From: a phage
Assembly: GCA_015370545.1 (NCBI GenBank)
Contig: GCA_015370545.1_3932.1
Direction: 5' to 3' (one strand)
Length of the DNA stretch: 64,000 nucleotides
Within the stretch, counting starts at the first letter, position 1; each line of letters begins with the position of its first letter. The notes beneath the pieces were generated by a model. It was not told the origin of the DNA and searched no databases. It worked only from the letters and a program-made list of their open reading frames with translations. The position numbers were made by a program, and so were the translations under genes. Below, one piece after another: positions 63,596 to 63,735 of this stretch.

Positions 63596-63735
63596 TTATC
63601 TTTGTAGATAAGTTATTAAGCTTACCTGTGAGTATGCGACCACAAAGGGTGAAAGGGTAAATTCTAGATTTAAACCCAAAAAGGCACATCGCTACAGACC
63701 TTAAGCAAGTCTGGGTAGCTTATCTACAAAGATAA
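63596..63735. repeat. 17-bp perfect inverted repeat flanking about 105 bp
   Basis: TTATCTTTGTAGATAAG at 63596-63612 and its exact reverse complement CTTATCTACAAAGATAA at 63719-63735. Confidence 0.6.

What the first reader, a model, noticed from the sequence alone, without database searches (positions are those of the whole stretch)
63596..63735. Perfect 17-bp inverted repeat enclosing about 105 bp inside the tRNA array
TTATCTTTGTAGATAAG (63596-63612) is exactly complementary to CTTATCTACAAAGATAA (63719-63735). Such a long perfect repeat in AT-rich spacer is unlikely by chance. It may be the closing stem of a structured ncRNA, the ends of a miniature inverted-repeat insertion (it lies next to the split tRNA halves), or a recombination/processing site.
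Basis: seen in the sequence. Interest (0 to 1): 0.5.

Follow-up and report, generated by a model that had tools for sequence, protein, structure and literature searches.

The report
Structured phage RNA beside tRNA-Lys
The inverted repeat is the closing stem of a roughly 144-base folded non-coding RNA that Felix O1-like phages keep directly in front of their lysine tRNA gene; it has not been described before and its function is unknown.

Summary
The repeat is real and longer than reported: 19 perfect bp (63594-63612 / 63719-63737), the longest inverted repeat in the window and beyond 40 shuffles.

The window is a Felixounavirus. The repeat lies in a plus-strand tRNA array, 4 nt upstream of tRNA-Lys(UUU).

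Relatives show it is an RNA helix, not a DNA repeat:
- Base pairs are kept through compensatory changes and through G.U pairs that exist only on the plus strand.
- In ten sequence types, each 5' end pairs best with its own 3' end.

Inside the stem are conserved hairpins and two probable pseudoknots. Two sharply bounded alleles (about 50% identical inside, flanks 97-100%) circulate within Felixounavirus.

More distant relatives carry recognisable versions, always just upstream of tRNA-Lys(UUU). Neither Rfam, any GenBank annotation under the match, nor the searched literature describes it.

The transposon reading is not supported: single copy, no empty site, no target duplication.

Function is unknown. 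It is probably cut out of the tRNA transcript, by RNase P on its 3' side and perhaps by RNase III in the stem.

The array also holds a Ro60-like gene and Y-RNA-like units. I found no specific link between these and the element.

The parts
63594..63737 (+). Whole element: about 144-nt structured non-coding RNA (type A allele)
   Evidence: Covariance model R1 scores 134 bits on the plus strand against 32.7 on the minus strand. Fold energy is -48.3 kcal/mol, z = -5.0. Coordinates were checked.
63594..63612 (+). P1, 5' arm of the closing helix (AAUUAUCUUUGUAGAUAAG)
   Evidence: 19-bp perfect repeat. Six P1 pairs show compensatory changes across 21 sequences, and 98% of cells are paired against at most 49% when the partner is slid.
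63719..63737 (+). P1, 3' arm of the closing helix (CUUAUCUACAAAGAUAAUU)
   Evidence: Same evidence as the 5' arm. In ten sequence types each 5' end pairs best with its own 3' end: -24 to -35 kcal/mol, against a mean of -10.6 for non-cognate ends.
63620..63624 (+). 5' strand of proposed pseudoknot PK1 (GCUUA), pairs with the P4 loop
   Evidence: GCUUA/UAAGC in type A, GCUAA/UUAGC in type B, UUGCUUA/UAAGCAA in L149, UUGUUCA/UGAACAA in L153, UUACUA/UAGUAA in L156. Assigned by hand, so provisional.
63628..63643 (+). P1a hairpin (GUG/CAC). Its loop AGUAUGCGAC contains the 5' strand of PK2 (GCGA, 63636-63639)
   Evidence: The stem differs between types: GUG/CAC, GGGG/CCCC, UCGUC/GAUGA, GCCU/AGGC. 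The loop pairing was tested.
63655..63677 (+). P3 hairpin with the invariant apical loop UUCUAGA (63662-63668)
   Evidence: The loop is identical in types A and B. The AAA to GGA change in L133 keeps pairing through G.U. Other types carry U plus a different palindromic hexamer.
63689..63692 (+). 3' strand of proposed pseudoknot PK2 (UCGC), just upstream of P4
   Evidence: GCGA/UCGC (A), GCGG/CCGC (L149), GAGU/ACUC (B, L150), GGAGU/ACUCC (L157), CGGGU/ACCUG (L151), AGGG/CCCU (L152), AGAGU/ACUCU (L155). Provisional.
63695..63713 (+). P4 hairpin (CAGAC/GUCUG) with loop CUUAAGCAA. Loop bases 63702-63706 form the 3' strand of PK1
   Evidence: Two P4 pairs show compensatory changes. The stem sequence differs in distant types while the hairpin is kept.
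63742..63817 (+). tRNA-Lys(UUU), the constant downstream neighbour of the element
   Evidence: ARAGORN and Rfam both call it. The element ends 1-17 nt upstream of tRNA-Lys(UUU) in all ten sequence types.

Best explanation
The inverted repeat is helix P1, the closing stem of a roughly 144-nt structured non-coding RNA read from the plus strand, the same strand as the tRNAs. It belongs to a so far unannotated RNA family. Felix O1-like phages (Felixounavirus, Suspvirus, Mooglevirus and more distant relatives) keep this family immediately upstream of tRNA-Lys(UUU) in their tRNA array.

Shown here: P1 is conserved as a pairing, not as a sequence. Inside it lie the conserved hairpins P1a, P3 and P4. 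Two loop-to-junction pairings, PK1 and PK2, co-vary between sequence types.

Inferred: the RNA is transcribed with the array from the two sigma-70-like promoters at 62410 and 62501. Its 3' end is made when RNase P cuts at the 5' end of tRNA-Lys, 4 nt downstream. The 19-24 bp P1 duplex buries both ends against exonucleases, may be an RNase III site, or both. The released RNA then acts in trans as a folded RNA or RNA-protein particle.

Its actual task is not known. The setting (a phage tRNA array headed by a Ro60-like gene reported to counter a host defence) points to RNA metabolism or counter-defence.
For: - The repeat exceeds chance.
- Strand: G.U pairs at several P1 positions, and in P3 and P4, would be C.A mismatches on the other strand. 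Phage DE17 has three A-to-G changes in the 5' arm that keep the helix only as G.U. The model scores 134 bits on the plus strand against 32.7 on the minus strand.
- Covariation: 8 pairs with compensatory changes in 21 sequences, against 3.3 +/- 0.8 in shuffles (0 of 500 reach the observed value). 98% of cells are paired, against at most 49% for slid partners.
- Type B helix P2 has 3 compensatory pairs.
- Cognate P1 ends rank first of ten in all ten types.
- PK1 and PK2 are better than shuffled loops in most types.
- Position directly upstream of tRNA-Lys(UUU) is kept in L149-L153 and L155-L157 although the upstream neighbour changes.
- Overlapping ORFs are not conserved.
- There are promoters upstream, and no plus-strand terminator inside the array.
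- No Rfam family matches at E up to 10.
Against: - There are no expression or end-mapping data, so transcription, processing and stability are all inferred.
- PK1, PK2 and the homology of the distant types rest on hand alignment. The model scores only 12-20 bits for L150-L152.
- PK1 is not found in L152.
- Phage SP116 has lost the element together with tRNA-Lys and is still a viable isolate, so the element is dispensable at least under isolation conditions.
- The sequences compared are related, so the shuffle controls overstate significance.
Confidence: 0.75

Rival explanations
1. Y-RNA-like partner of the phage Ro60-like protein. The element would be bound by the product of the gene at 60976-62391 and would tether or gate it, as Y RNAs do for Ro60. 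This is a reading of function that is compatible with the structural conclusion.
For: - The upstream protein is Ro60-like. Its predicted structure has pLDDT 87, and the top 12 PDB matches are all Ro60 or TROVE proteins, E 2.5e-8 to 1e-6.
- The array holds four Y-RNA-like units, one of them a YrlA-like tRNA mimic.
- The unit signature ACAGCAA is about 15-fold enriched next to homologous genes in 75 distant loci.
- The element has the Y-RNA hallmark of paired 5' and 3' ends.
- In the Felix clade P4 shares AGACC..AGCAA..GGUCU with the units.
- The Ro60-like gp130 of the related phage Bas63 counters the ppl defence (PMC11482910).
Against: - The resemblance of P4 to the units is not general. In distant types the P4 stem differs, and the loop co-varies with PK1, for example UGAACAA in L153.
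- P1 carries no ACAGCAA or CGAA-type motif.
- Rfam Y_RNA and YrlA do not match.
- The RNA allele (A or B) changes while the protein stays about 98% identical.
- Phages with the protein and a tRNA-Lys outside this clade lack the element.
- The constant neighbour is tRNA-Lys, not the Ro60-like gene or the Y-like units.
Confidence: 0.2
2. Passive processing stalk or spacer. The stem would exist only as an RNase III (or other nuclease) entry site that separates upstream RNAs from tRNA-Lys, and the enclosed sequence would have no function of its own.
For: - A 19-24 bp duplex meets the length requirement for RNase III (established knowledge; ribosomal RNA processing stems are built this way).
- The element is tightly packed between other RNAs.
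- It is dispensable in SP116.
Against: - The interior is not free to drift. The UUCUAGA loop, P4 and the PK1/PK2 pairings are kept across alleles that are only about 50% identical.
- The same architecture recurs in distant types with different sequences.
Confidence: 0.12
3. Terminal inverted repeats of a miniature mobile insertion (MITE-like).
For: - A long inverted repeat brackets about 106 bp.
- The array shows cassette-like insertions and deletions elsewhere.
- The A/B allele boundary falls inside the repeat arms.
- HNH homing endonuclease genes occur in the arrays of relatives.
Against: - One copy per window and per genome.
- No direct repeat flanks it.
- No relative has a precise empty site. 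The only loss is a larger deletion between two T-arm sequences.
- The arms differ between types but always match their own partner, including through G.U pairs.
Confidence: 0.02
4. DNA-level palindrome: a protein-binding, cruciform or recombination site acting on double-stranded DNA.
For: The repeat is perfect in this particular genome, and the allele exchange is bounded by it.
Against: Many relatives have imperfect DNA repeats whose mismatches are exactly the ones that read as G.U on the plus-strand RNA. A DNA site would not show that strand asymmetry, nor conserved internal hairpins.
Confidence: 0.03

Closest known systems
T4 species 1 and species 2 RNAs (rnaC, rnaD)
   Same: Small stable RNAs of about 120-140 nt with unknown function, encoded inside a phage tRNA cluster on the tRNA strand and abutting tRNA genes (annotation). 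From my own knowledge, not checked here: species 1 RNA was reported in the 1970s to be cut by RNase III in vitro.
   Different: No significant sequence similarity. rnaC ends in a tRNA-like T-arm and acceptor mimic, which this element lacks. T4 has no Ro60-like gene in that cluster.
Y RNAs / YrlA (Rfam RF00019, RF02553)
   Same: About 100-150 nt, with the 5' and 3' ends paired in a long stem around a structured module. Encoded near a Ro60-type gene. Phage examples are known (PMC4201824, PMC12135203).
   Different: No Ro60-binding-type motif in the closing stem, no T or D arms, no Rfam match. The element tracks tRNA-Lys rather than the Ro60-like gene.
RNase III processing stems that flank 16S and 23S rRNA
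   Same: Long duplex formed by the sequences on either side of a mature RNA within a polycistronic stable-RNA transcript.
   Different: Cleavage was not tested here. The enclosed RNA is about 100 nt with its own conserved pseudoknotted fold.

Membership tests
Y RNA / YrlA | Encoded next to a Ro60 (TROVE plus vWA) gene | tested here: met
   The gene at 60976-62391 carries DUF2828 and DUF7788. Its predicted fold matches Ro60 over the full length. The element lies 1.2 kb downstream on the same strand.
Y RNA / YrlA | 5' and 3' ends pair to form a long stem | tested here: met
   P1, 19-24 bp, with covariation.
Y RNA / YrlA | Conserved Ro60-binding motif in or beside the terminal stem (GGUCCGA, GNCGAAG or CGAA; here the local ACAGCAA signature) | tested here: not met
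   P1 has no such motif. The AGCAA in the P4 loop is not invariant and co-varies with PK1.
Y RNA / YrlA | Match to the Rfam covariance models, or tRNA-like T and D arms (YrlA) | tested here: not met
   No Y_RNA or YrlA match at E up to 10 for type A, or up to 1 for type B and the distant types.
Y RNA / YrlA | Physical binding to the Ro60 protein | not testable with these tools
   Needs immunoprecipitation or gel-shift.
Miniature inverted-repeat transposable element | Multiple copies | tested here: not met
   One plus-strand hit in the window and one per related genome stretch.
Miniature inverted-repeat transposable element | Target-site duplication and precise presence/absence polymorphism | tested here: not met
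   The flanks (GGUCUGGU on the left, UAAUGG on the right) share no direct repeat. No empty site among more than 250 relatives. The only loss is the SP116 T-arm to T-arm deletion.
Intrinsic terminator | G+C-rich hairpin followed by a U tract | tested here: not met
   No plus-strand terminator-like site in 63590-63740. The stem is A+U-rich and is followed by UAAU and then the tRNA.
RNase III processing stem | About 20 bp or more of near-perfect RNA duplex | tested here: met
   19 perfect bp, 24 in the minimum-energy fold. At least 16 bp in all ten types.
RNase III processing stem | Cleavage by RNase III | not testable with these tools
   Needs end mapping in rnc+ and rnc- hosts.
T4 rnaC / rnaD | Sequence homology | tested here: not met
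   Local alignment scores fall within the range of shuffled sequences. Model R1 finds nothing in the T4 locus.
Known ribozyme and riboswitch classes in Rfam 15 | Covariance-model match | tested here: not met
   No match overlaps the element in any type.
tRNA-Lys anticodon-arm mimic | The P4 stem follows the anticodon stem of the phage's own tRNA-Lys | tested here: not met
   The two are similar only in the Felix clade (CAGAC against CAGA). There is no correspondence in L150-L157.

The most novel reading that the evidence does not exclude
The element is a new class of complex-fold phage RNA: four helices meeting at one junction (P1, P1a, P2/P3, P4), two loop-to-junction pseudoknots, and a self-complementary apical loop that could drive dimerisation. 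Its conserved coupling to tRNA-Lys(UUU) would reflect an active role in the conflict over that tRNA. It might be an inhibitor or decoy for tRNA-Lys-directed host nucleases (PrrC, RloC, PARIS AriB), or a catalytic RNA acting on the array transcript.
Probability: 0.15. Interest if true: 0.85.

Novelty: new variant of a known kind. Interest (0 to 1): 0.6.

Why it matters
Felix O1-like phages are widely used for typing and therapy, and hundreds of their genomes are public. Yet this 144-nt RNA is not annotated as a feature under the match in the GenBank records listed by the searches (the only annotations there are tRNA-Lys and occasional 'hypothetical protein' ORFs) and is absent from Rfam. It has the marks of an RNA with a demanding job:
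- a fold kept across sequences that are about 50% identical or less;
- two pseudoknots;
- two alleles exchanged between otherwise near-identical genomes;
- a fixed position in front of tRNA-Lys(UUU), which by my own knowledge (not checked here) is the tRNA targeted by several bacterial defence nucleases.

It also sits in an array headed by a Ro60-like gene that was recently shown to counter a defence system. The array contains Y-RNA-like units whose existence had only been guessed at. A defined RNA with clear helices and natural allele variants gives a direct experimental handle on what phage tRNA arrays do beyond supplying tRNAs.

Tried and rejected
- **T-loop idea.** I first read the 7-nt P3 loop UUCUAGA as T-loop-like. 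I dropped this when L149 showed ACUAGU and L151-L155 showed UAACGUU. What is shared is U plus a palindromic hexamer.
- **P4 as a minimal Y-like, Ro60-binding unit.** It is supported only in the Felix clade and contradicted by distant types.
- **P4 as a tRNA-Lys anticodon-arm mimic.** Rejected.
- **Homology to T4 rnaC or rnaD.** None found.
- **Rfam.** Permissive thresholds on types A and B and on six distant loci found nothing at the element.
- **Coding potential.** ORFs of 85 aa (minus strand), 47 aa (minus strand) and 33 aa (plus strand) overlap the element, and some records annotate 'hypothetical protein' there. None is conserved in type B genomes.
- **Model R1 on 75 distant loci with the Ro60-like gene, and on T4.** No homologues. 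In L011 and L035 another tRNA precedes tRNA-Lys(UUU) by 5 nt.
- **Pattern scan of IMG/VR.** It recovered only Felix-like contigs (27 of 50 loci), with no new allele.
- **Literature.** Nothing on Felix O1 with Y RNA, and nothing on DUF2828 in phages.

Full report
**1. The observation**

The two 17-mers are present and exactly complementary. The perfect repeat is 19 bp, 63594-63612 with 63719-63737. The repeat finder gives 22 nt at 95%, and the minimum-energy fold pairs 24 positions. It is the longest inverted repeat in the 64-kb window. In 40 dinucleotide-preserving shuffles the longest arm averaged 11.3 bp and never exceeded 16. Both strands fold far better than shuffles (z about -5), but that signal comes from the stem alone and says nothing about strand.

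**2. Setting**

The window is a Felixounavirus: 97-98% identity to many Escherichia and Salmonella Felix O1-like phages. A plus-strand tRNA array starts at 62557, behind two sigma-70-like promoters at 62410 and 62501. There is no plus-strand terminator inside the array.

The element abuts the 'split tRNA' unit on its 5' side and ends 4 nt before tRNA-Lys(UUU). The gene that heads the array (60976-62391) carries DUF2828 and DUF7788. Its predicted structure has pLDDT 87, and the best 12 PDB matches are all Ro60 or TROVE proteins. A preprint on the Felixounavirus Bas63 reports that this protein (gp130) counters the ppl defence, and only speculates that some downstream 'tRNAs' are Y RNAs (PMC11482910).

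**3. It is an RNA helix on the plus strand**

About 250 phage records carry the locus. Sixteen distinct sequences (alignment A3) and then 21 (A6, aligned to model R1) were scored.

In A6, 98% of cells form standard pairs, against 25-49% when the 3' partner is slid by 1-3 columns. Eight pairs show changes on both sides (six in P1, two in P4), against 3.3 +/- 0.8 in shuffles, with 0 of 500 shuffles reaching the observed value (earlier). The A6 alignment was fitted to the model's structure, so the counts lean towards it.

Several positions are G.U in many sequences. On the minus strand these would be C.A mismatches. In phage DE17 the DNA repeat is imperfect (AUAAG became GUGAG), but every change reads as G.U. 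The model scores 134 bits on the plus strand and 32.7 on the minus strand. ORFs that overlap the element are not conserved.

**4. Two alleles**

Most Felixounavirus genomes carry type A, as in the window. Some Felixounavirus (bumzen, JLBYU32, DaR-2019b, HK3) and all Suspvirus and Mooglevirus genomes examined carry type B: 62 records matched the type B query (60 over at least 80% of it) against roughly 190 for type A.

Between the window and bumzen the flanks are 97-100% identical, while 63595-63708 is about 50% identical. Both alleles keep P1, the P3 hairpin with the identical loop UUCUAGA, and the P4 hairpin. Type B has an extra helix P2 with three compensatory pairs. The Ro60-like protein stays about 98% identical whichever allele is present.

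**5. Distant relatives**

Contigs whose Ro60-like protein is 51-63% identical were fetched. Eight of the nine (all but L154) share the synteny: DUF5681, the Ro60-like gene, then a tRNA array, with a lysozyme gene upstream in seven of them.

With filters off, the model's best or near-best hit in L149-L152 ends just before tRNA-Lys(UUU). L149 scores 47 bits (E 6.5e-8). L150-L152 score only 12-20 bits.

Reading the 185 nt upstream of tRNA-Lys(UUU) in all nine loci shows the same layout in eight of them, with different sequences. L154, which lacks the synteny, does not show it.

The layout is:
- a long closing stem;
- a junction strand;
- hairpin P1a;
- a P2/P3 domain;
- 4-6 nt that pair with the P1a loop (PK2);
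- a two-base linker;
- hairpin P4, whose loop pairs with the first junction strand (PK1).

In ten types the 28 nt at each 5' end pair best with their own 3' end: -24 to -35 kcal/mol, against a mean of -10.6 (sd 3.7) for non-cognate ends, and rank 1 of 10 every time.

PK1 and PK2 beat shuffled loops in most types, with individual p values from 0.004 to 0.27. PK1 fails in L152. Clear compensations include:
- UUGCUUA/UAAGCAA against UUGUUCA/UGAACAA against UUACUA/UAGUAA for PK1;
- GCGA/UCGC against GAGU/ACUC against AGGG/CCCU for PK2.

These two pairings rest on my hand assignment and are provisional.

The P3 apical loop is U plus a palindromic hexamer in seven of ten types: UCUAGA, AACGUU, or ACUAGU inside a longer palindrome. 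This fits either a kissing-loop dimer or a short extension of the hairpin, and I cannot tell which.

**6. What it is not**

- No Rfam family matches at permissive thresholds in any type.
- T4 rnaC and rnaD share the setting but not the sequence.
- There is one copy per genome, no target duplication and no empty site.
- Phage SP116 has lost the element through a larger deletion between the T-arm of the upstream tRNA mimic and the T-arm of tRNA-Lys. This also shows the element is dispensable for a viable isolate.
- P4 resembles both the local Y-like units and the tRNA-Lys anticodon stem, but only in the Felix clade. Neither resemblance holds in distant types.
- Phages outside this clade that carry the Ro60-like gene and a tRNA-Lys lack the element.

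**7. How it most likely works**

Shown: a conserved, pseudoknotted, plus-strand RNA fold whose ends are locked in P1 and whose position upstream of tRNA-Lys(UUU) is fixed.

Inferred from established knowledge of tRNA transcript processing:
- co-transcription with the array;
- 3' end made by RNase P cleavage at tRNA-Lys;
- P1 protects the ends and may be an RNase III substrate.

The task of the released RNA is unknown. I put about 0.2 on a Ro60-like partner role, about 0.12 on a purely passive processing stem, and about 0.15 on a new active role tied to tRNA-Lys conflicts or to catalysis.

**8. Novelty and verdict**

The family is unannotated and absent from Rfam and from the searched literature. 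In kind it resembles the small stable RNAs of phage tRNA clusters and Y-type RNAs. It fails the defining tests for membership of either, so I rate it a new variant of a known kind.

- Confidence that the repeat is the closing stem of a structured plus-strand RNA: 0.75.
- Interest: 0.6.

Noticed in passing
window 60976-62391 (+): The 471-aa protein that heads the tRNA array (DUF2828 plus DUF7788, PHROG 850 'RNA-binding protein') has a predicted fold matching Ro60/TROVE over its full length. Homologues occur in 693 phage records, including mycobacteriophage 'Ro-like' proteins.
   Followed up: yes
window 62723-62801, 62890-62959, 63371-63450, 63458-63595 (+): Four Y-RNA-like units share one design: an outer 4-bp helix that co-varies, an AGA bulge, an AGACCnn helix, UUU, ACAGCAA, a variable insert, then the closing strand GGUCUGG. 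ACAGCAA on the gene's strand is about 15-fold enriched within 500 nt downstream of homologous genes in 75 distant IMG/VR loci. These units do not match Rfam in this window, and I found no description of them.
   Followed up: partly
window 63458-63595 (+); L015 3307-3407: The 'split tRNA halves' are the fourth unit: T arm (63517-63533), acceptor-like hairpin (63534-63552) and D arm (63553-63569) inside the unit stem. This is the YrlA architecture. Rfam YrlA matches the analogous unit of a distant phage at 39 bits, below the 69-bit threshold.
   Followed up: partly
window 62410-62438 and 62501-62530 (+): Two tandem near-consensus sigma-70 promoters (TTGACA-17-TAATAT and TTGACA-18-TAAAGT) sit just upstream of the first tRNA.
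   Followed up: no
window 63047-63115, 63288-63310, 63818-63895: Cassette-like stretches between tRNAs are present here but absent from phage bumzen, whose flanks are otherwise 97-100% identical. 63818-63895 folds into a stem-closed hairpin (z = -4.4), and 63047-63115 also folds better than shuffles (z = -2.6).
   Followed up: partly
L147 (Salmonella phage SP116) 980-1000: A natural deletion joins the T-arm of the YrlA-like unit to the T-arm of tRNA-Lys. It removes the element and most of tRNA-Lys.
   Followed up: yes
L035 3597-3711: A tRNA-like gene (Rfam tRNA, 49 bits over 115 nt) has its anticodon arm replaced by an insert that carries ACAGCAA. It lies upstream of a distant Ro60-like gene.
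   Followed up: no
L152 5501-5563: A sub-threshold match to the Rfam 'skipping-rope' motif (29.1 bits against a threshold of 36.7; E 4.5e-5 in the small search) lies directly after the Ro60-like gene of a distant relative.
   Followed up: partly
GenBank GU169904 (Staphylococcus phage SA1), MG065664 (Campylobacter phage A132): Records named for unrelated hosts contain Felix O1-like sequence at 97-98% identity, including this locus. They are probably contaminated or misassembled.
   Followed up: no
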